Positions 4,592 through 15,743 of a stretch of 54,391 bases of DNA are shown here, in pieces. The first letter of the stretch is position 1; each line of letters begins with the position of its first letter. The DNA comes from Candidatus Tayloriibacteriota bacterium (GTDB lineage Bacteria; Patescibacteriota; Minisyncoccia; Phycocordibacterales; JARIHA01), in assembly GCA_029288475.1 (NCBI GenBank), contig JARIHA010000168.1, positions 1 to 54,391 on the forward strand, given 5' to 3'. The notes below the pieces were generated by a model that saw only the letters and a program-made list of their open reading frames with translations, made no database searches and was not told the DNA's origin. The translations under genes were made by a program, and so were the position numbers.

Positions 4592-5113
4592 CTACTTGAG
4601 GGCTTGCTTAATAACCTCATCAACAACTTGGTCAATCGGTTTTTCCGTATTTATCGAAATAGCACCTTTTGCCAATATTTCTTTTGCATACGTTTGATAA
4701 CGCCCTAAAATTCCCTTTTTGATATGAGGATCTTTTCCAAAATCATTATCTGTTCGCATATCGATTCTCTTGCTAAATGTTTCCGGACTACATTGCAAAA
4801 GCAGTATTTTATCAAACATAGGAAGAAAATTATTTTGATTTCCTGCCATTCCTAAAACAAAAGCAACATCAACATTCTTGTTTAAAAGCCTAGTAAGATA
4901 TTCGATATCACAAATCCAGTCATGCGCATGAACGAACTCGGGAGTTAGCTTGGTATCCTTCCCTCCGTGCTTTTCTCTCGTTCCTTGATGCACCCAGGAA
5001 CACAAACCGTCTACCTCATCAATGCTGATAGTATAAAAGCCTCGTCTAGACAATTCTTTGGCGATTGTTGTTTTACCTGTTCCGGAGACCCCGGTAATAT
5101 AAATCTTTTTCAT
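4592..5113 (-). CDS. P-loop NTPase / small-molecule kinase-like protein
   Basis: 173 aa with an N-terminal Walker A, ITGVSGTGKTT. Size and layout resemble nucleotide or shikimate-type kinases. Confidence 0.65.
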   Translation of the reverse strand: MKKIYITGVSGTGKTTIAKELSRRGFYTISIDEVDGLCSWVHQGTREKHGGKDTKLTPEFVHAHDWICDIEYLTRLLNKNVDVAFVLGMAGNQNNFLPMFDKILLLQCSPETFSKRIDMRTDNDFGKDPHIKKGILGRYQTYAKEILAKGAISINTEKPIDQVVDEVIKQALK

Positions 5114-6681: not shown

Positions 6682-7194
6682 TTATCTCACTATCTCATAA
6701 TGGAGCTGTATTTCATTGTCACTCAATTTCTTTGTTCCGAGAAGTTTAAGCTGTCTATCAAAATCAGAACCACTAAAAGATGGTATGCCCTTCCCGAGAA
6801 GAGTTGGCTCGATATCAATGTAAATTTCATCTACAAGATCTTCCGCAAGAAATGAAGCATTCAGAGTACTTCCACCTGCGAGAATCACAGTGTCAAATCC
6901 CTTTAGAATTTTTAGAGCTTCACTTGGCGAATGTGCGATCTTATGACTCGGATCCTTTAATTCAAAATTTGCGTGAGAAACCGCAACAATCTTAATGCCA
7001 ACCTTAAGAAATTCTTGGAACTCAGGCTGCTGCGAAAGAATCCCATACGTCCTTTTCCCTATAACCATTGCACCTGCTCCTTTTACATTAGAAACATAAC
7101 TTGCTGATTCTTCTTTTGTCAGAAAATCTGCAGAATCATCGAATTTTGCGATAATGCCATTTAAAGTTGTAGCCATGTATAAGATTACTTTCAT
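6682..7194 (-). CDS. dihydrofolate reductase-family protein (RibD C-terminal-like)
   Basis: 170 aa. ATTLNGIIA, VIGKRTY and the C-terminal beta-strand pattern are typical of the RibD_C/DHFR-like family. Confidence 0.7.
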   Translation of the reverse strand: MKVILYMATTLNGIIAKFDDSADFLTKEESASYVSNVKGAGAMVIGKRTYGILSQQPEFQEFLKVGIKIVAVSHANFELKDPSHKIAHSPSEALKILKGFDTVILAGGSTLNASFLAEDLVDEIYIDIEPTLLGKGIPSFSGSDFDRQLKLLGTKKLSDNEIQLHYEIVR

Positions 7195-7201
7195 ATAAAT
7201 T

Positions 7202-7624
7202 TTAGTTTACAGATTCTACAATCCACTCAATGCCGTATTTATCCCTAAACATGCCAAAGTATGTTCCCCACGGGCTGTTACCCATTGGTGCTTCTGCTTG
7301 TCCTCCAGCAGAAAGTCCATTGAAGATTTTTTCAGCTTTTTCCTTGCTGTCTACGCCTATGTGGATCTTGCTTCTATTTTCGTTCTCACTGACTTTTCCC
7401 ATGAATTCAGGCACATCATTTCCGATGAGCATGCTTGCATCATCGAGAGGCAGGACGATCTGCATGATCTTGTTTGCGTCTTTCTCTGCAACCTGGAATT
7501 CAGGACCCGCAAGATCCTTGAACCGAACCACTTTTTTGAACTCTCCGCCAAACACGGACTTATAAAAAGCAAACGCTTCTTCGGCATTGCCATTAAAATT
7601 GATCCAAGGGTTTATTGTTGTCAT
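7202..7624 (-). CDS. VOC/glyoxalase-fold protein (PhnB-like)
   Basis: The N-terminus MTTINPWINFNGNAEEAFAFYKSVFGG and the C-terminal FRDKYGIEW are typical of PhnB-like VOC proteins. The ORF-track start at 7639 is TTG, so the ATG at 7624 is used. Confidence 0.75.
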   Translation of the reverse strand: MTTINPWINFNGNAEEAFAFYKSVFGGEFKKVVRFKDLAGPEFQVAEKDANKIMQIVLPLDDASMLIGNDVPEFMGKVSENENRSKIHIGVDSKEKAEKIFNGLSAGGQAEAPMGNSPWGTYFGMFRDKYGIEWIVESVN

Positions 7625-7657
7625 ATGAAGATTATACAATAAATTATCAGGGTTTAA

Positions 7658-8371
7658 CTAGCTTGAGGTTGTAGTCGGAAAAACAACAATCCCTCTGCCG
7701 GCATAATACGCTGAAAAATCTTTTACCGACAGCGTATGTCCAATTTGAGTATTTGAACTTACAAATCCTGAAGGATTATTGAAAGAGAGATTGCCTTTAC
7801 TGAGGTCATACCCGGTAACTATGATCAAATGTCCGCCTTTCTGATCCTGAGACGCAGTATCGTAACCACGTATGTTTGGGTTTACCGATACTATGACCAG
7901 TCGTTTTTTAGAGAGCGCATATCTAATGCCTTGTATGCTGAGTCTGGTATATATTTCAGCATTCAGATCATACTTACAGATCCATTTTGCAAACTCCGCA
8001 TATCTCATGGCAGATATTTCATTGGGATCTTCCAAGTAGACGTTGTGCTTCAGTGCATCCTCAGCCAACTCGGCTGGTTTTATCTTTAGATTTTTGAAAT
8101 AGCCGAGGGCCATAGCGACAGAAGCCATGCCGCACATGGTAAAGGCCCATTGCGCATAACGTTCCGGCGACACTGCACCGGTCTCTCTCCAATTGCGATC
8201 ACTCGCGGGATGAAGCTTTTTTGTCAGGCTCAACTCCGCACTTTCCGGGACGGCAAACTGGCAGACATACGGCACTTTATACTCAACGTTTTTAGGAATA
8301 GAAGAAAAGCTGGCTAGGAGCTCGTACTGTATGTTTTTTATTTCTTGAATTATCCGGGGGAGGATTTTCAT
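7658..8371 (-). CDS. papain-like (peptidase C39-like) domain protein
   Basis: 237 aa. A candidate catalytic Cys lies in TMCGMASVAMAL and a candidate His in GGHLIIVTGYD, with C39-like spacing. This is a motif-level call only. Confidence 0.5.
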   Translation of the reverse strand: MKILPRIIQEIKNIQYELLASFSSIPKNVEYKVPYVCQFAVPESAELSLTKKLHPASDRNWRETGAVSPERYAQWAFTMCGMASVAMALGYFKNLKIKPAELAEDALKHNVYLEDPNEISAMRYAEFAKWICKYDLNAEIYTRLSIQGIRYALSKKRLVIVSVNPNIRGYDTASQDQKGGHLIIVTGYDLSKGNLSFNNPSGFVSSNTQIGHTLSVKDFSAYYAGRGIVVFPTTTSS

Positions 8372-8433
8372 TTAAAGTCATTATAACATGGGCTGATTTA
8401 GGTGATTGCAAGCTATTTAACCATTACAATTGT

Positions 8434-8462
8434 TTGACATAATATATAAATGATGCTATTAT
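8434..8462 (+). promoter_or_regulatory. sigma70-type promoter
   Basis: TTGACA (8434-8439), exactly 17 nt of spacer, then TATTAT (8457-8462). It lies about 125 nt upstream of the 8587 ATG. Confidence 0.5.
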
Positions 8463-8586
8463 ATGTTCATACCATAGTTCGCTATGGCGGCCGTTAATGA
8501 GCTCTCTGGCTCGTATCGCAAGGTACCGAATGTCTCGGTATAGCGATCCATATTGGTAGCGGGAAATCTCTTGAAAGGAGATAAAA

Positions 8587-9470: not shown

Positions 9471-9498
9471 AAAAAAACCCATCTACACAGTAGATAGG
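9471..9498 (-). terminator. intrinsic terminator after the 263-aa gene
   Basis: On the minus strand a 9-bp stem CCUAUCUAC/GUAGAUGGG (one G-U pair) with a 3-nt loop is followed by U7. Confidence 0.7.
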
Positions 9499-9525
9499 CT
9501 TATCGTAAACTTTGGCATTAGCAAT

Positions 9526-10317
9526 TCAGCCGCAGCCAATTGGATTATGCAGTACCGCGGCCCCGCATTTCAGAAAGCACCTGATCCTGCCTGTGGTGTG
9601 AATACAGACCAGGACGCCGTTGCTTGCCGCATGACGCCCAAGGACCGTGAACTCGGCGATGCTTTTGTTGATCGCCCTTTTAAGGAATCTTTCATCCAGT
9701 CCCCGCCTTGCGCAATACTCCTTCCTTTCGGGCGCCAGCTTTTTGATCAAAGGGTTGAAGAAATCATTCTGAAGGGACACCTCGGCCTTGAGCCTTTCTT
9801 CGCCTGCACGGACACCCGGAAGATAGTCGCTCATTTCCGTGGCAGAATAAAGTCCGCTGGGAAGATATTTTTGCGTCCTGGCCAGCATTTCTTTCATGAC
9901 CACCTTTGCTTCCGGAGCCTGAGTCTTGCCATAGGTTGCAAACAAGAAAGTAACGGAAGAGATCGCCATGACCGCTTTTACCTTTTCCATGAAAGCTATC
10001 TGCAAAGGAATGAGCTTGGGAACATCCGTCCCGCCTTCCTTTTCTTGCCCATCAAGACAAACAGGACAAACGACCTTCAATCCTTTTCCTTCACTGTGCA
10101 AAAGGGCTTGTCCGATATTGCTAAGCGCTTTTCTGCTTATGGACCAGAAGCCGGCAATTTCTACCAGCTGCCTGAGCTGTATTTCGATCTGCGCCAACCG
10201 AGCTCGATCAACCTGGGGATAATTGCTATCACCGCGAGCGATCGAACACATGATCCGCCTCCAGTTAAGACTGCTTCGCTGAAGCAACTCGATTTTTCCA
10301 ATTTGTGGGGTTTGCAT
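9526..10317 (-). CDS. hypothetical protein, T-box regulated (263 aa)
   Basis: ATG start with a natural amino-acid composition, unlike the Arg-rich antisense ORF 9547..10392. It is flanked by its own leader and terminator. I recognise no family. Confidence 0.6.
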   Translation of the reverse strand: MQTPQIGKIELLQRSSLNWRRIMCSIARGDSNYPQVDRARLAQIEIQLRQLVEIAGFWSISRKALSNIGQALLHSEGKGLKVVCPVCLDGQEKEGGTDVPKLIPLQIAFMEKVKAVMAISSVTFLFATYGKTQAPEAKVVMKEMLARTQKYLPSGLYSATEMSDYLPGVRAGEERLKAEVSLQNDFFNPLIKKLAPERKEYCARRGLDERFLKRAINKSIAEFTVLGRHAASNGVLVCIHTTGRIRCFLKCGAAVLHNPIGCG

Positions 10318-10366
10318 AGTCGTTTTAAAAGAACAATTTCACAGCGGGCATTTGATGTTGAAGTAA

Positions 10367-10652
10367 CAAAAAATCCCGCCCTTATTACATAATGATTACA
10401 TTACGCAATAAGGGCGGGATTCTTGAAGAATTCGCGGTGCCACCTTACTTAAAACAAAAACACCTATGGAGGTGCTTTGTTCCACTCATCGACTCCAGCC
10501 TTGCGGCCGACATCGAGTATCCCATGGTTACGGAGGAAACCGGATCTCCACTGACGCAGAGATCATCCTGTTGCTAAGCAACTATGCAGGCCCAATCCCC
10601 AAACAGCTAAGCCGCGGGGACCTGTATATGGATTTTGTAGCTGTGAAGTACT
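10367..10652 (-). promoter_or_regulatory. T-box leader RNA (tRNA-responsive transcription attenuator)
   Basis: On the minus strand, AAGGUGGCACCGCG (10446..10433) matches the T-box consensus AGGGUGGNACCGCG at 13 of 14 positions. An antiterminator can be drawn as AAGG/CCUU plus GCG/CGC around the 7-nt bulge UGGCACC. It overlaps the 5' arm of a terminator with a 12-bp stem (extendable to about 18 bp, 10375-10386 / 10407-10418) followed by U6. A Stem III-like hairpin lies at 10475..10460. Confidence 0.75.
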
Positions 10653-10658
10653 AAGATA

Positions 10659-10687
10659 ACTTTATGCCTTAGGGTGGGGAAAGTCAA
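10659..10687 (-). promoter_or_regulatory. candidate promoter of the T-box leader
   Basis: On the minus strand: TTGACT (10687..10682), 17 nt of spacer, then TAAAGT (10664..10659). Confidence 0.4.
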
Positions 10688-12065: not shown

Positions 12066-15000
12066 TTAATGCCTGTTCATCACTCCGCGTGTAATTGGGC
12101 CAAAATAGCCTGAGGCTGGCGTAATGTGATTGGCTTTCTGAAACCTGATCAGGCTAGCGCGTGTCAAAACACCAAAATTAGTCGTTTCATTCCCCGGCGA
12201 TCCAGGACCGGTTTTGACGATACTAAACCCATGAGTGTTGAGATACTTCTGCAAAGACTGGACATCAATCCCTACGGAACCAGCAAGAAGGTTACGGGTA
12301 AATACAAAAGTATTTACTGGAGTAGTATTTACTAGAGTTGGTTGAGTTTTTACAGAAGGTGCTGGTGCAGTAGTAATCTGCTTAGGCGGCAATACCGGAT
12401 AGAATACAAAACCTGATCCACTGCCCACCGGTGGGCCATTTGATGGAGGAGGTGAATGTGTCTCAGGGGTTGAATGTATCTCGGGAAATGTCCAATTCAC
12501 ATTACCGCCTCCATCCACGCAGCCATTGGTACACACAACCGGAGAAACAGCGGCATTGGTAGCTCCAGCAACAGAGAGGAAAGATACCGACACGGAGCCT
12601 TGCGGGTTGAGTGTATAGCCGGAAACTGGAGTAAACTTGCTTACCTGGTACAGTGAAGTATCGAGTGCAAACACATTACCTGCCCTACCTGTTGCCACCC
12701 CAACGAGTTGAGTGAATTGACCGTCACCTGAACCATTTTCCCCGAATTTTCCAAGATAAGCTCCCTCCGTACTAAACATTTGCGCAATATTACTACTGAC
12801 ATTTCCCACATATACCGTATCGGAAGAATCTATAGAAATACTACTTGGTGTATTAAACTGACCTTCACCCGCTCCTCCCATTCCAGCCCTGCAACTAGAC
12901 GTACAGACTTCCAAATGAGCGACGCCGTCACTTACCCCCCAACCCCACATCAAAATAAAGTTACCATTCTTATCGAATTTTTGAACACGGTGATTGTACG
13001 TATCAGGCACATATACGTTGCCATGAGAATCTGTTGCAAGATTCATTGCCACATAACTATCTGAAAATTCACCGGCACCATCGCCTATTCCGCCACCTTG
13101 GCAACTTGACGTGCAAATTTGAAATTCGCCCGATCCATCTCTTACCCCCCAACCCCACATCAAAATAAAGTGGCCATCCTTATCGAATTTTTGAATACGG
13201 TGATTGTACGTATCTTCTACATATATATTTTGAGAAGAATCCATGATTATGCCTGTAGGATTCTCAAATTGATTTTCAGCAGTTCCTTCACTACCCCATG
13301 CAGTAACAAAATTCTTAGAAGAATCGAATTTAACAATACGATTGTTGTAACTATCAGATACATAGATATTGCCCGAAGGATCAATAACTTCACCATGCGA
13401 GCACCATATTTGTTCATAGTCATCCGAACCTGGTGACGGAGTCTCTCCAATAAACGTACCGCTTGAATCAAATTCCTGAATGCGGTTTGTTGCACCAGTC
13501 TGACCGCAATCAGCAACATATACGTTTCCGCCAGAGTCAGTAGAAACTGACGTGGGGTTTGAGAATTTTCCTGAAGGAGCTGCGGTATACAATGCACCAA
13601 ACGAATGCAGCGGCGTTCCACTGGAAGAAAGCTTTGCTACTCTGCTATGTTCAGAATCGGTCACATAGATATTGCCGGAAGAGTCGAGAGCTAGGTGAGT
13701 TGGATTATAAAAAGGAGAGTCACTGTCGCCAAAATGTGCGAGAACACTGCCGCCGGAATCAAGCTTATAGACTTGTTCATCGTTCTCATTAATAACATAA
13801 ATATTTCCGGAGTGATCAACAGTCAGACCAAGAGGAAACGTGAAATCAGTATAGGTAAAACTTGCCAACTGACTGCCGTCTGGCGCAAGCTTGACGATGC
13901 GATCGTTATCACGATCAGAGACATAGATATTGCCAGAGGAATCGAGAGCGACACCTTCTGGGCGACTTAATGTATTACTATCTGTAAATACGTCGATAAC
14001 GCTACCGGCTGGATCCATTTTGACAATGCGGTTATTAAATTGGTCTGAAACGTACATATTACCCGACATATCAAGAGCAATGTCATTAAGACGACTGAAA
14101 GCTAGAGGCGCAGTAAAGCTTGCCAACTGACTGCCGTCTGGCGCAAGCTTGAGGACACGATCATTATCTTGATCTGAAATATACATATTACCTGAAGGAT
14201 CCAGAGTTACAGAAAACGGAGAACTCATGGGAGAATCAGGATTAGTAAATATAGACACAACAGCGCCGGCAGAATTGAGTTTGACGATACGATTACCATT
14301 TGTATCTGCCACATAGATATTGCCCGAAGTATCAACGGCGACACCATTTGGCCTAGGCGTAACATCACTGGTAAAAAATTCTCCCCACTTACGATTGAAC
14401 GCAGGAGACGTAACGGATGGTTGCCGAATGGTCAGCAAATTGCCGGCAGTACCATTGAGAGACAACGTTCCTGTAATTGTCTGTGTCCCGAGATTAAAAT
14501 ATAACGTGTCAGCAGAACTAACAGACTTGGTCAGATTATAAAATGTTGTTGAACCAGAGACGACTTGGTTCGCACCGGAAAGATTGAGGGTACCACTACT
14601 TGCAACAAAAGTGCCTTCATTAGTGAAGTTACCTGTTACCGTCAATGTATGACCATTTAGATTAAGCGTACCGCCCGAAAAAATATGCACCGTATGAATA
14701 GATTGATTGGCAGTAAGAGTGACGTAATTCTGGATTTCCGCATCATTAGTTGCGCCGGGATAATCTATACCCTCCCTACTCCTTATAGCGTCGTAGCTCG
14801 CTAGCTGATTGCCAGAAGAGTCAAGCTTGACTACACGATAGTTATTGTAATCACCCACGTAAATACCGGAAGAATCCACTGCCACAGCTTGAGGAGCGGA
14901 AAACGCAGTCGTCGAATCAGTAAACGTATCAAGTACTGTACCGGTAGAATCCAGCTTAACGATGCGGTTGTTATTACGATCGGCGACATACATATTGCCA

Positions 15001-15743
15001 AGAGTATCGAGAGAGATGCCGGTAGGAAAATAAAAGGCCGAACCTGTATCAGTAAAAGTATCTAACACATTTCCATCAGGATCCAATTTAACAATGCGAT
15101 TATTGCCGCTGTCTGCGATATAGATATTTCCAGACGTATCAAGTGTCACTCCAGAAGGTGAGGACAAAGAATCCCCAGCAGTAAAGACGGCGAGTTCGGT
15201 ACCCGTTGGACCGAGCTTGATCACATTATTACGTCCAGAATCAACCACATAGATATTTCCCGAGATATCCACCGCGACACCAGCCGGCGTGTTAAAAGAA
15301 TCAGAGAATTCCGAAACAGTACTGCCGCTTGAATTGAACTTAACAACAAGATTATTGGAGGTATCCGTCACGTAAATATTGCCCGTAGAATCAAGCGTTA
15401 TGCCTGAGGGCACATCAAACGCGGTATCTGTATCCAGAATGACGTCGGTTACCTTACCTGTAGAATCGAGCTTTACGACACGATGGTTCCCTGGATCAAC
15501 CGCATAAGTATTACCCGAAGAATCTCGAGCTACTCCAGTAAGACCATTAAAACCCGTAGCACCCCACGTAGCGCCGTCATTCCAATTGCCATCGCGAACA
15601 GTTGCGAACGTGTCAGCAAAGACGTGACTAAAAAGAAATACTCCGAGCAAAAGAATGAGGGCAAAGGAAATTTTTGCCGCATGTTTTTTGTACTTTGAAA
15701 AGATGCGACTGTTGAAAAACATAATGTGAATATATTCTACCAT
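12066..15743 (-). CDS. giant NHL-repeat surface protein with C-terminal peptidoglycan-binding domain
   Basis: 1225 aa with an N-terminal hydrophobic signal or anchor. I count at least 15 tandem NHL-type repeats by eye (SGNIYV.D..NNRIVKLD..G). A Pro-rich linker precedes a C-terminal PG_binding_1-like segment (LQKYLNTHGF...FGPITRG). The start may instead be the second Met, at 15722. Confidence 0.85.
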   Translation of the reverse strand: MVEYIHIMFFNSRIFSKYKKHAAKISFALILLLGVFLFSHVFADTFATVRDGNWNDGATWGATGFNGLTGVARDSSGNTYAVDPGNHRVVKLDSTGKVTDVILDTDTAFDVPSGITLDSTGNIYVTDTSNNLVVKFNSSGSTVSEFSDSFNTPAGVAVDISGNIYVVDSGRNNVIKLGPTGTELAVFTAGDSLSSPSGVTLDTSGNIYIADSGNNRIVKLDPDGNVLDTFTDTGSAFYFPTGISLDTLGNMYVADRNNNRIVKLDSTGTVLDTFTDSTTAFSAPQAVAVDSSGIYVGDYNNYRVVKLDSSGNQLASYDAIRSREGIDYPGATNDAEIQNYVTLTANQSIHTVHIFSGGTLNLNGHTLTVTGNFTNEGTFVASSGTLNLSGANQVVSGSTTFYNLTKSVSSADTLYFNLGTQTITGTLSLNGTAGNLLTIRQPSVTSPAFNRKWGEFFTSDVTPRPNGVAVDTSGNIYVADTNGNRIVKLNSAGAVVSIFTNPDSPMSSPFSVTLDPSGNMYISDQDNDRVLKLAPDGSQLASFTAPLAFSRLNDIALDMSGNMYVSDQFNNRIVKMDPAGSVIDVFTDSNTLSRPEGVALDSSGNIYVSDRDNDRIVKLAPDGSQLASFTYTDFTFPLGLTVDHSGNIYVINENDEQVYKLDSGGSVLAHFGDSDSPFYNPTHLALDSSGNIYVTDSEHSRVAKLSSSGTPLHSFGALYTAAPSGKFSNPTSVSTDSGGNVYVADCGQTGATNRIQEFDSSGTFIGETPSPGSDDYEQIWCSHGEVIDPSGNIYVSDSYNNRIVKFDSSKNFVTAWGSEGTAENQFENPTGIIMDSSQNIYVEDTYNHRIQKFDKDGHFILMWGWGVRDGSGEFQICTSSCQGGGIGDGAGEFSDSYVAMNLATDSHGNVYVPDTYNHRVQKFDKNGNFILMWGWGVSDGVAHLEVCTSSCRAGMGGAGEGQFNTPSSISIDSSDTVYVGNVSSNIAQMFSTEGAYLGKFGENGSGDGQFTQLVGVATGRAGNVFALDTSLYQVSKFTPVSGYTLNPQGSVSVSFLSVAGATNAAVSPVVCTNGCVDGGGNVNWTFPEIHSTPETHSPPPSNGPPVGSGSGFVFYPVLPPKQITTAPAPSVKTQPTLVNTTPVNTFVFTRNLLAGSVGIDVQSLQKYLNTHGFSIVKTGPGSPGNETTNFGVLTRASLIRFQKANHITPASGYFGPITRGVMNRH

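What the first reader, a model, noticed from the sequence alone, without database searches (positions are those of the whole stretch)
9526..10687. T-box (tRNA-sensing) leader controlling an uncharacterised 263-aa protein
Seen directly, reading the minus strand:
- 10446..10433 reads AAGGUGGCACCGCG, a 13 of 14 match to the T-box consensus AGGGUGGNACCGCG.
- The flanks draw the textbook antiterminator. AAGG (10446-10443) pairs with CCUU (10413-10410), and GCG (10435-10433) pairs with CGC (10416-10414), around the 7-nt bulge UGGCACC.
- The 3' strand of that antiterminator is part of the 5' arm of a long terminator hairpin (10375-10386 / 10407-10418, extendable inward) followed by U6. This gives the required mutually exclusive structures.
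- A Stem III-like hairpin (GCACCU-CCAU-AGGUGU, 10475..10460) sits just upstream.
- A TTGACT-17-TAAAGT promoter sits about 290 nt upstream of the ATG.

Established knowledge: the bulge UGGN pairs with the tRNA NCCA end. N=C therefore predicts a tRNA with discriminator G73, which limits the candidates to Gln, Asn, Asp, Glu, Trp or Ser.

Inference: the only GAA-NNN-purine string in the leader is GAA-CAA-A (10482..10476). CAA is a Gln codon and would match the tRNA-Gln(UUG, G73) encoded at 37413..37483. However, I could not fold a convincing canonical Stem I around it, so the specifier is unresolved. UGG or AAC in other loops remain possible.

T-boxes normally control aminoacyl-tRNA synthetases, amino-acid biosynthesis or transporters. 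The regulated protein here shows none of those signatures and is monocistronic with its own terminator. It is therefore a candidate new member of an amino-acid/tRNA-charging regulon.
Basis: partly seen in the sequence, partly recalled or inferred. Interest (0 to 1): 0.8.

Follow-up and report, generated by a model that had tools for sequence, protein, structure and literature searches.

The report
Tryptophan T-box controlling a CDPS-like protein
The leader is a real but atypical tRNA-sensing T-box riboswitch from a Patescibacteria (CPR) bacterium that most likely reads tRNA-Trp (not tRNA-Gln) and switches on an unannotated protein family whose predicted fold resembles cyclodipeptide synthases and Tyr/Trp-tRNA synthetase catalytic domains.

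Summary
Rfam's T-box model gives only a sub-threshold hit (31.5 bits against a gathering score of 93). The call still holds, because the same leader precedes homologues of the 263-aa protein at 10 distinct loci, down to 24% protein identity.

A motif scan recovered at least 92 unique leaders of this class from metagenomes:
- The antiterminator keeps 7 of 7 pairs in 87 of 92 leaders, with compensatory changes.
- The decoding domain covaries strongly (95% of cells paired; 0 of 500 shuffles reach this).

The proposed Gln specifier GAA-CAA-A is wrong. It lies in the conserved Stem III flank and 5' strand. The likely specifier is an invariant UGG plus G in a 5-nt bulge of a shortened Stem I (10594..10592):
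- Leaders with this bulge precede TrpRS, TrpB/TrpB2, TrpD-like, TrpE-like and Trp-dehydrogenase-like genes.
- The four tRNA-Trp genes on these contigs read as G73, which matches the UGGC bulge.

The protein has no Pfam or NCBIfam match. A confident AlphaFold model (pLDDT 95) resembles cyclodipeptide synthases and TyrRS/TrpRS Rossmann domains only weakly (TM about 0.5). Its function remains unknown.

Verdict: a new T-box variant and a new Trp-regulon member.

The parts
10659..10687 (-). Sigma-70-like promoter: TTGACT (10687..10682), 17-nt spacer, TAAAGT (10664..10659)
   Evidence: Consensus scan. Both hexamers are conserved in the L004 and L010 leaders while the spacer varies; L009 keeps TTGACT with TAAATT. 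Not tested experimentally.
10565..10633 (-). Shortened Stem I folded as a compact three-way junction: P1 AUCC/GGAU (10633-10630 / 10568-10565), long hairpin P1a (10628..10583), short hairpin P1b (10582..10570). No distal T-loop platform and no recognisable K-turn.
   Evidence: RNAalifold on 6 and on 16 leaders. Pair counts on the 16-leader alignment give P1 98%, P1a 92-96% and P1b 83-88% of cells paired, with compensatory changes in 18 of these 24 pairs.
10591..10595 (-). Specifier bulge UUGGG on the 3' side of P1a. The proposed specifier is UGG (10594..10592, Trp codon), followed by the conserved purine G10591.
   Evidence: UGGG is invariant in the 16-leader alignment. It is present as a helix-flanked bulge or loop in 87 of 91 class members, against 5.9% of random windows. 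Leaders carrying it precede TrpRS, TrpB, TrpB2, TrpD-like and TrpE-like genes.
10543..10564 (-). Stem II: GAUCUC / GAGAUC with the conserved loop UGC-NNN-AGUG (an S-turn-like AGUG)
   Evidence: 98.6% of cells paired, and 5 of 9 pairs show double changes. Rfam aligns AGUG to the consensus AGUA of Stem II.
10520..10542 (-). Stem IIA/B pseudoknot element: CGG (10542-10540), loop UUUCCU, CCG (10533-10531), F-box-like CCGUAA (10533..10528). The loop UCCU is proposed to pair with GGGA (10523..10520).
   Evidence: Read from the sequence and from the Rfam alignment. The element is invariant across the class, but it was the search pattern, so covariation cannot be judged.
10485..10517 (-). Variable linker hairpin between the pseudoknot and Stem III
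   Evidence: RNAalifold, columns 180-213 of A2, with compensatory changes. Loop length varies between loci.
10453..10487 (-). Stem III (10481..10453) with the conserved purine flank GAGUG (10487..10483, matching RRRxG) and AA after the stem.
   Evidence: The RRRxG-Stem III-AA motif is described in PMC7583486.
10410..10446 (-). Discriminator/antiterminator: T-box sequence AAGGUGGCACCGCG (10446..10433) with the bulge UGGCACC. Helices are A1 AAGG/CCUU and A2 GCG/CGC, with the 3' strand at 10416..10410.
   Evidence: Across 92 unique class leaders, 87 keep 7 of 7 pairs with compensatory changes (AAGG/CCUU vs AGGG/CCCU; GCG/CGC vs ACG/CGU vs ACA/UGU vs AUG/CAU).
10368..10418 (-). Intrinsic terminator: 20-bp hairpin (10418..10375) plus U6 (10373..10368). 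Its 5' arm contains the antiterminator 3' strand.
   Evidence: -37 kcal/mol.
9526..10317 (-). Regulated gene: 263-aa protein of an unannotated family. Motifs: P85-x-C87 (family consensus PxCPDY), HTT (240-242), LHNP (256-259). Predicted fold: Rossmann, CDPS/class-Ic aaRS-like.
9475..9501 (-). Terminator-like hairpin plus U-run after the gene, which makes it monocistronic
   Evidence: 12 pairs, then a T-run.

Best explanation
The region is a transcription-attenuating T-box riboswitch that most likely senses tRNA-Trp, in a Patescibacteria (CPR) genome.

Proposed mechanism:
1. Transcription starts at the TTGACT/TAAAGT promoter.
2. The nascent leader folds a reduced decoding domain. This is a short Stem I built as a three-way junction that displays UGG plus G in a 5-nt bulge, buttressed by Stem II and the IIA/B pseudoknot.
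3. The CCA anticodon of tRNA-Trp pairs with UGG.
4. If the tRNA is uncharged, its 3' end GCCA pairs with UGGC in the T-box bulge (G73:C). This stabilises the weak antiterminator and prevents the -37 kcal/mol terminator, so RNA polymerase reads into the 263-aa gene.
5. Charged Trp-tRNA cannot dock, and transcription stops at the U6 run.

The gene product belongs to an unannotated family of about 260 aa. Its predicted fold resembles cyclodipeptide synthases and the catalytic domain of Tyr/Trp-tRNA synthetases, but it lacks their sequence motifs. It is inferred to act on tryptophan or tRNA-Trp during Trp limitation.

Shown here: the anatomy, conservation, covariation, regulon content and predicted fold. 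Inferred: tRNA identity, the switching itself and the protein's function.
For: **T-box identity**
- Full-length RF00230 alignment, E = 2.6e-5 locally.
- Similar sub-threshold hits (29-37 bits) directly upstream of the homologue in 5 of the 7 other loci scanned.
- The six orthologous leaders are 81% identical, and 18 pairs show compensatory changes.
- The same leader precedes family members at 40%, 24% and lower identity: L135, L137, L105/L107, L102.
- Antiterminator 7 of 7 pairs in 87 of 92 unique leaders, with compensatory changes.
- Decoding domain: 95.1% of cells paired, 23 of 36 pairs with double changes, 0 of 500 shuffles as high, slid controls 37-49%.
- Terminator far more stable than antiterminator.

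**Trp specificity**
- UGGG is invariant in the Stem I bulge.
- Leaders with it precede TrpRS (TIGR00233 at 252 and 391 bits), TrpB (559 bits), TrpB2 (735 bits), TrpD-like, TrpE-like, ScyB-like Trp dehydrogenase and DAHP synthase genes.
- The four tRNA-Trp(CCA) genes on these contigs read as G73.
- The class mixes UGGC and UGGU. TBDB reports this G73:U wobble for 46% of Trp T-boxes.

**Protein**
- AlphaFold2 pLDDT 94.9, pTM 0.91.
- Foldseek top hits are CDPS (5ocd, 5mlp, 2x9q), then TyrRS/TrpRS.
Against: - RF00230 is far below gathering (31.5 against 93).
- The window leader has no recognisable K-turn and no distal Stem I platform.
- UGG invariance comes from a set retrieved with one pseudoknot motif. 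No sister leader with the same architecture but a different triplet and a different aaRS was found to calibrate the specifier position.
- True TyrRS genes lie downstream of five UGG-type leaders, behind a small Zn-ribbon ORF.
- Five distinct family loci have no T-box: L001/L013, L006, L139, L140, L141.
- No tRNA-Trp gene lies in the window itself.
- Structural similarity of the protein is modest (TM 0.45-0.52, E about 6e-3), with no sequence-level homology to aaRS or Pfam CDPS.
- A CDPS-like enzyme would consume charged tRNA, which fits poorly with induction by uncharged tRNA.
Confidence: 0.8

Rival explanations
1. One reading: a Gln-specific T-box that reads CAA in GAA-CAA-A (10482..10476) and responds to the tRNA-Gln(UUG, G73) encoded at 37412..37483.
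For: tRNA-Gln(UUG) with G73 is in the window. UGGC is compatible with any G73 tRNA.
Against: - The string lies in the GAGUG flank and the base-paired 5' strand of Stem III, downstream of Stem II and the pseudoknot, where no T-box carries a specifier.
- One orthologue has CAC there, within the 5' strand of Stem III (L010).
- TBDB lists Gln among the least common T-box specifiers.
- The regulon of the class is Trp-centred.
Confidence: 0.02
2. A genuine T-box, but UGGG is a structural motif of this lineage's Stem I rather than the specifier. The tRNA sensed would then be another one (for example via YUG = Leu, or GGG = Gly, or an unrecognised site).
For: - UGGG is invariant across genes of many kinds, including TyrRS-containing loci and many genes unrelated to Trp by annotation.
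- No same-architecture leader with another triplet was available as a control.
- Most class members have UGGU, which also fits A73 tRNAs such as Leu.
Against: - TrpRS, TrpB, TrpB2, TrpD-like, TrpE-like and Trp-dehydrogenase-like genes dominate the identifiable regulon.
- The Y before UGG is missing in many members, so YUG is not conserved.
- A Gly specifier would need UGGA for U73.
- The window clade has UGGC, which excludes A73 tRNAs such as Leu.
- The mix of U and C opposite G73 is a documented Trp T-box trait.
Confidence: 0.1
3. On the product: the protein is a true cyclodipeptide-synthase-type enzyme that consumes aminoacyl-tRNA (for example Trp-tRNA) to make a diketopiperazine or another small molecule. 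It would not be an enzyme that restores Trp or Trp-tRNA supply.
For: - With the high-confidence model, the best structural matches are CDPS (5ocd, 5mlp, 2x9q, 9j61, 6ez3), and the lengths are similar.
- The protein is basic: pI 9.35, family median 8.8.
- An invariant Cys sits right after the first Rossmann strand, near where CDPS carry their acyl-accepting Ser. The equivalence is inferred, not superposed.
Against: - Induction by uncharged tRNA-Trp is the wrong logic for an enzyme that spends charged tRNA.
- There is no Pfam CDPS hit even at E = 1.
- TM is only about 0.5.
- Neighbours are housekeeping or tRNA-related genes (TrpRS, YbaK, CsaA-like tRNA_bind, HisRS) rather than tailoring enzymes.
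Confidence: 0.15
4. A chance resemblance or a decayed, non-functional T-box remnant.
For: The Rfam score is below gathering. A single GGUGGNACC is expected about 0.5 times per window by chance.
Against: Every domain is conserved and covaries across at least 92 leaders from many metagenomes, always in the 5' UTR position with an intact terminator.
Confidence: 0.01

Closest known systems
Trp-specific transcriptional T-box leaders of Firmicutes (for example upstream of trpS, trp operons and trpX; RF00230)
   Same: - T-box sequence with a UGGN bulge and an antiterminator/terminator switch.
- Stem III with the RRRxG...AA flanks.
- Stem II and the IIA/B pseudoknot.
- UGG specifier followed by a purine.
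- U or C opposite G73 of tRNA-Trp (PMC7778990).
- Control of TrpRS and Trp biosynthesis genes.
   Different: - Stem I is about 30 nt shorter and lacks the distal interdigitated T-loop platform.
- In the window subtype it is a three-way junction without a K-turn consensus.
- It scores only 29-40 bits against Rfam's model.
- It occurs in Patescibacteria, and I found no paper in the searchable library linking T-boxes to that phylum.
- Its regulon contains many unannotated genes.
Actinobacterial ileS translational T-boxes with short or ultrashort Stem I (PDB 6UFG, 6UFM; reviewed in PMC7583486)
   Same: A truncated Stem I without the elbow-binding platform, combined with Stem II and the IIA/B pseudoknot. 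In those RNAs these elements clamp the codon-anticodon duplex. Some class members here (L023, L057, L075, L068) carry the triplet in a terminal loop, as the ultrashort forms do.
   Different: - Here the expression platform is an intrinsic terminator (transcriptional), not Shine-Dalgarno sequestration.
- The specifier is Trp, not Ile.
- The window subtype replaces the K-turn, which is reported as essential for short Stem I, with a three-way junction.
Cyclodipeptide synthases (AlbC, Rv2275; PDB 5ocd, 5mlp, 2x9q) and class Ic aaRS catalytic domains (TyrRS, TrpRS)
   Same: Predicted five-stranded Rossmann fold with a helical insertion between strands 3 and 4. The size (about 240-260 aa) is like CDPS. 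The protein is basic.
   Different: - No Pfam, NCBIfam or hhalign similarity.
- No HIGH or KMSKS motifs.
- The conserved residues are different: Cys87, His240, Thr242, His257, Asn258, Arg62, Arg198.
- TM is only about 0.5.

Membership tests
T-box leader (Rfam RF00230) | Covariance-model score at or above Rfam's gathering threshold (93 bits) | tested here: not met
   No hit at gathering in the whole window. 31.5 bits, full-length, E = 2.6e-5 in a 511-nt scan. Orthologous leaders score 29-37 bits.
T-box leader (Rfam RF00230) | Conserved 14-nt T-box sequence forming a 7-nt bulge with UGGN between helices A1 and A2 | tested here: met
   AAGGUGGCACCGCG at 10446..10433, with the 3' strand CGCCCUU at 10416..10410. 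87 of 92 class leaders keep 7 of 7 pairs with compensatory changes.
T-box leader (Rfam RF00230) | Mutually exclusive intrinsic terminator that shares the antiterminator 3' strand | tested here: met
   20-bp hairpin at 10418..10375 plus U6. -37 against about -6 kcal/mol. The terminator stem is conserved and covaries.
T-box leader (Rfam RF00230) | Stem III flanked by the RRRxG ... AA purine motif | tested here: met
   GAGUG (10487..10483), Stem III (10481..10453), then UUAAGUA. Invariant in the six orthologues. Motif definition from PMC7583486.
T-box leader (Rfam RF00230) | Stem II with an S-turn, and a Stem IIA/B pseudoknot carrying the F-box | tested here: inconclusive
   The Stem II helix covaries (98.6% paired, 5 pairs with double changes) and has the conserved UGC...AGUG loop. 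The F-box reads CCGUAA rather than CCGUUA. The pseudoknot pairing UCCU/RGGA is invariant, but it was the search pattern, so there is no covariation test.
T-box leader (Rfam RF00230) | Specifier codon plus 3' purine in a Stem I loop, matching the amino acid of the regulated genes | tested here: met
   UGG plus G is invariant in the 3' bulge of Stem I. The same bulge sits upstream of TrpRS, TrpB, TrpB2, TrpD-like and TrpE-like genes. This is class-level inference. No contrasting specifier in the same architecture was available.
T-box leader (Rfam RF00230) | K-turn (GA motif) at the base of Stem I | tested here: not met
   The window has AUCC-A-UAUACAGG ... A-GGAU with no tandem G.A. By reading, most other class members do have NUU-GA ... 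GA flanking P1.
T-box leader (Rfam RF00230) | Distal Stem I platform (AG bulge plus distal loop, interdigitated T-loops) that stacks on the tRNA elbow | tested here: not met
   The Stem I region is 60 nt against 90 nt in the Rfam consensus. The upper part is a simple, variable hairpin, absent altogether in L023, L057 and L075.
T-box leader (Rfam RF00230) | Discriminator base of the cognate tRNA pairs with N of UGGN | tested here: met
   UGGC in the window. The four tRNA-Trp(CCA) genes on related contigs (L017, L031, L045, L099) read as G73. The window's own tRNA-Trp was not available.
T-box leader (Rfam RF00230) | Uncharged-tRNA-dependent antitermination | not testable with these tools
   Needs in vitro transcription or reporter assays.
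Cyclodipeptide synthase (Pfam CDPS) | Sequence match to the family profile | tested here: not met
   No Pfam family at E <= 1 for the window protein, and none for 70 family members at E <= 0.01.
Cyclodipeptide synthase (Pfam CDPS) | CDPS-type Rossmann fold | tested here: inconclusive
   Foldseek top hits are 5ocd, 5mlp and 2x9q with probability 0.97-1.00, but E is only 6e-3 to 5e-2 and TM is 0.44-0.52.
Cyclodipeptide synthase (Pfam CDPS) | Catalytic Ser after strand 1 plus the Tyr/Glu/Tyr pocket residues | not tested
   No residue-level superposition was available. The family has an invariant Cys (C87) just after strand 1. Equivalence to the CDPS Ser is inference only.
Class Ic aminoacyl-tRNA synthetase (TrpRS/TyrRS, PF00579) | HIGH and KMSKS motifs and a profile match | tested here: not met
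   No PF00579 hit. hhalign against a TrpRS/TyrRS profile gives probability 0.06. The protein ends at LHNPIGCG with no KMSKS region.

The most novel reading that the evidence does not exclude
The 263-aa family would be a previously unrecognised tRNA-Trp-linked enzyme. It would have a CDPS/class-Ic-aaRS-like Rossmann fold and its own Cys-His-His active site. Biosynthetically minimal CPR bacteria would switch it on when tRNA-Trp is uncharged, for example as a tRNA-dependent or salvage route that restores Trp-tRNA. It would sit inside a large and mostly uncharted Trp T-box regulon (TrpB2, ScyB-like dehydrogenase, YbdK-like ligases, deacylases, radical SAM enzymes, Zn-ribbon proteins). The riboswitch class itself would show that a transcriptional T-box can work with a platform-less and even K-turn-less Stem I.
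Probability: 0.25. Interest if true: 0.85.

Novelty: new variant of a known kind. Interest (0 to 1): 0.62.

Why it matters
**For RNA biology.** This documents a coherent class of at least 92 transcriptional T-boxes that falls below Rfam's threshold. It combines a truncated Stem I (sometimes a three-way junction without a K-turn) with Stem II and the pseudoknot. That mix has so far been associated with translational actinobacterial ileS T-boxes. A lineage-specific covariance model would recover many missed riboswitches in Patescibacteria.

**For CPR biology.** The regulon offers a guide to how organisms with minimal biosynthesis cope with tryptophan limitation. It flags several unannotated families as Trp-linked.

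**For enzymology.** The 263-aa family has 112 representative clusters, no annotation anywhere, and a confident model with a tRNA-enzyme-like fold. That makes it a concrete, testable candidate for a new tRNA- or tryptophan-dependent activity.

Tried and rejected
1. **Gln specifier (GAA-CAA-A):** rejected. It lies in the Stem III flank and stem.
2. **True start at M23 (GGAGG + ATG at about 10251):** rejected. Residues 14-22 are conserved at the protein level in distant homologues.
3. **Stem II loop triplet as specifier:** rejected. It varies among orthologous leaders of the same gene (GUC, GUU, ACA, AUA).
4. **YUG (Leu) or GGG (Gly) in the bulge:** rejected on discriminator base, variability and regulon.
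5. **Alternative pairing of AUCCAU with AUGGGAU:** not consistent across orthologues, whereas P1 covaries.
6. **Sequence-based annotation of the protein:** nothing from Pfam, NCBIfam, PDB sequence search (single sequence or profile), hhalign against TrpRS/TyrRS, cluster names or source names.
7. **Other-specificity leaders of the same architecture:** a search of 884 kb of fetched contigs found only one unrelated canonical T-box, in L116.
8. **"Chorismate mutase" genes in the regulon:** not supported. CM_2 scores only E = 0.003 for L039, and L118 has no hit.
9. **Literature searches** linking T-boxes to Patescibacteria, CPR, Saccharibacteria or CDPS: nothing relevant.
10. **Not attempted:** a lineage-specific covariance model.
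Full report
**Observation.**
- The T-box sequence AAGGUGGCACCGCG lies at 10446..10433.
- Its partner strand CGCCCUU lies at 10416..10410, which gives helices AAGG/CCUU and GCG/CGC around the bulge UGGCACC.
- A 20-bp terminator hairpin at 10418..10375, followed by U6, shares that partner strand.
- There is a Stem III hairpin and a TTGACT-17-TAAAGT promoter at 10687..10659.
- The terminator folds at -37 kcal/mol, and the antiterminator on its own at about -6 kcal/mol. That is the default-off arrangement expected of a T-box.
- The whole 301-nt leader is much more structured than shuffled controls (z = -6.5).

**Rfam.** RF00230 is not reported at gathering in the window. A permissive scan of 511 nt gives a full-length alignment (model positions 1-219) at 31.5 bits against a gathering score of 93, with E = 2.6e-5. 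The alignment shows why. The discriminator, Stem III, the F-box region and Stem II align well. The Stem I region is 60 nt where the model expects about 90 nt.

**Orthologous leaders.**
- The 263-aa protein has no Pfam, NCBIfam or PDB sequence match and only seven close relatives in the 5.8-billion-protein database.
- I fetched the contigs that encode them. Sub-threshold RF00230 hits of 29-37 bits lie directly upstream of the homologue in L004, L005, L009, L010 and L011.
- The six leaders align at 81% identity. RNAalifold finds 93 pairs, 18 of them with compensatory changes.
- More distant family members carry the same leader: P0009 at 40% identity (L135), P0017 at 24% (L137), L105/L107, and L102, which hhalign places in the family with probability 98%.
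- Five distinct loci do not: L001/L013, L006, L139, L140 and L141.
- Record titles place the relatives in Patescibacteria and Saccharibacteria metagenome-assembled genomes.

**The class.**
- After removing duplicates and chance matches, 92 unique leaders have a T-box core within 270 nt.
- In 87 of these 92 the antiterminator keeps all seven pairs, with repeated compensatory changes: AAGG/CCUU against AGGG/CCCU, and GCG/CGC against ACG/CGU, ACA/UGU and AUG/CAU.
- A 16-leader alignment of the decoding domain gives 95.1% of cells paired and 23 of 36 pairs with changes on both sides. None of 500 shuffles reaches this, and slid controls give 37-49%.

**Which tRNA.**
This is the RRRxG-Stem III-AA motif described for T-box discriminators (PMC7583486). 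It cannot be a specifier.
- In the decoding domain, the only unpaired element that is invariant is a 4-5-nt bulge, [Y]UGGG, on the 3' side of the main Stem I helix (window 10595..10591). It sits where canonical T-boxes carry the specifier followed by a purine.
- The bulge is present in 87 of 91 leaders with enough upstream sequence, against 5.9% of random windows.
- Genes behind such leaders include:
  - TrpRS (TIGR00233 at 252 and 391 bits, above the cutoff);
  - TrpB (559 bits);
  - TrpB2-type enzymes (735 bits);
  - TrpD-like phosphoribosyltransferases;
  - a TrpE-like protein;
  - a dehydrogenase whose best match is tryptophan dehydrogenase ScyB;
  - DAHP synthase.
- The TrpRS leader in L004 lies three genes upstream of the homologue of our protein and has the same three-way-junction Stem I with the same bulge.
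- The four tRNA-Trp(CCA) genes on these contigs all read as G73. That pairs with C in the window's UGGC.
- The class as a whole mixes UGGC (27) and UGGU (67). TBDB singles out this G73:U wobble for Trp T-boxes, at 46% of cases (PMC7778990).
- I therefore assign Trp, and treat it as a class-level inference.

**How it differs from textbook T-boxes.**
- Stem I is short and lacks the distal T-loop platform.
- In many members the upper hairpin is variable, and in a few it is absent, so that UGGG sits in a terminal loop (L023, L057, L075, L068).
- Most members have a K-turn-like NUU-GA...GA at the base.
- The window's subtype instead has a compact three-way junction (P1, P1a, P1b), and all three helices covary.
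- Stem II, the pseudoknot and the discriminator are conventional.
- The nearest precedent for a short Stem I combined with Stem II and a pseudoknot is the actinobacterial ileS translational T-box. Here, though, the output is an intrinsic terminator.

**The protein.**
- An exhaustive profile search finds 112 representative clusters, almost all about 260 aa and matching nearly full length.
- None has a Pfam domain or a name other than "hypothetical protein".
- With 70 sequences, AlphaFold2 gives pLDDT 94.9 and pTM 0.91.
- Foldseek against the PDB ranks cyclodipeptide synthases first (5ocd, 5mlp, 2x9q; TM 0.44-0.52, E from 6e-3), then TyrRS and TrpRS catalytic domains. The earlier, shallower model ranked TyrRS first.
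- The topology is a five-stranded Rossmann sheet with a helical insertion between strands 3 and 4, and no HIGH or KMSKS motifs. A profile comparison with TrpRS/TyrRS shows nothing.
- Near-invariant residues are Arg62, Pro85, Cys87 (just after strand 1), Phe109, Arg198, Gly227, His240, Thr242, His257 and Asn258. The protein is basic, with pI 9.35.
- Neighbours recur that deal with tRNA: TrpRS, a YbaK-like deacylase, a CsaA-like tRNA-binding protein and HisRS.
- I infer a function on Trp or tRNA-Trp. I cannot say which. A CDPS-like reaction that spends charged tRNA fits the regulatory logic poorly.

**Mechanism and confidence.** The steps are given under the best explanation. I put the T-box call above 0.95, the Trp assignment at about 0.85, and the combined statement at 0.8.

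**Limits.**
- There are no experiments.
- The window's own tRNA-Trp was not seen.
- The pseudoknot could not be tested for covariation, because it was the search key.
- No same-architecture leader with another specifier was found.
- True TyrRS genes lie behind five UGG-type leaders, after a small Zn-ribbon ORF. I cannot explain this.

Noticed in passing
L001 5840..5985 (same in L002, L003, L013); L006 5842..5985; L139 1343..1500; L141 about 4813..4960: Family members that lack the T-box each have a short upstream ORF with a Trp codon, followed by a terminator-like hairpin and a U-run. The peptides are MKYFISHNPSLNYWQSPLEPVFCW, MKNSMIQNISRNYWRGTLEPVFCV, ...AFSWHH... and MLIQKLHISGSWQAVRFRTV. 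In L001 and L006 the end of the ORF (GAACCAGUUUU) can pair with the 5' arm of the terminator (AAAACUGGUUCC). These may be Trp-codon leader-peptide attenuators that replace the T-box. There are only four distinct cases, found post hoc.
   Followed up: partly
L048, L112, L121, L026, L089 (for example L048 7018..8205): Bona fide TyrRS genes (TIGR00234 at 341-368 bits) lie 261-356 nt downstream of UGG-type T-box terminators, behind a small Zn-ribbon ORF. No second T-box core lies in between. Either only the Zn-ribbon gene is controlled, or TyrRS is co-regulated by tRNA-Trp.
   Followed up: partly
L015-L134 (leaders found): The Trp-class leaders also precede many unexpected or unannotated genes: YbdK/GCS2-like carboxylate-amine ligases (5), ScyB-like Trp dehydrogenases (2), AstE/AspA-like deacylases (2), radical SAM proteins (2), low-molecular-weight phosphotyrosine phosphatases (2), a 285-aa family with no Pfam hit (3), and small Zn-ribbon proteins (at least 6). 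Together they suggest a Trp-salvage regulon in CPR bacteria.
   Followed up: partly
L033, L091, L095, L017: Four leaders share the IIA/B pseudoknot motif but lack the UGGG bulge. L095 has a long, canonical-looking Stem I (AGUGAAAG loop) with a possible UAC and precedes a phosphotyrosine phosphatase gene. L033 and L091 precede an AstE/AspA-like gene. They may have a different specificity.
   Followed up: no
L116 about 6850..7150: A canonical-type T-box (UGGC, F-box CCGUUA, possible AAC specifier) lies upstream of a class II Asp/AsnRS-like gene (7055..8470). It is on the same contig as a Trp-class leader that controls TrpB2.
   Followed up: no
L017 3170..3245; L031 387..459; L045 7501..7574; L099 3068..3141: tRNA-Trp(CCA) genes, all reading as G73, lie within a few kb of Trp-class T-box leaders on four contigs.
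   Followed up: partly
window 9547..10392 (+): A 281-aa ORF lies antisense to the regulated gene and runs into the terminator. It appears only in the mechanical ORF list and is most likely not a gene.
   Followed up: no
window 12066..15743 (-): A 1225-aa protein made of many repeats of an NHL-like 'SGNIYV.D..N.R..K' motif, with a C-terminal region resembling a peptidoglycan-binding domain (both by eye). It is a typical large surface protein of CPR genomes and is unrelated to the finding.
   Followed up: no
window 10431..10417 (-): The antiterminator loop contains a small hairpin (AUUCU-UCA-AGAAU). Its 3' half also extends the terminator stem. It is conserved in some of the orthologues.
   Followed up: no
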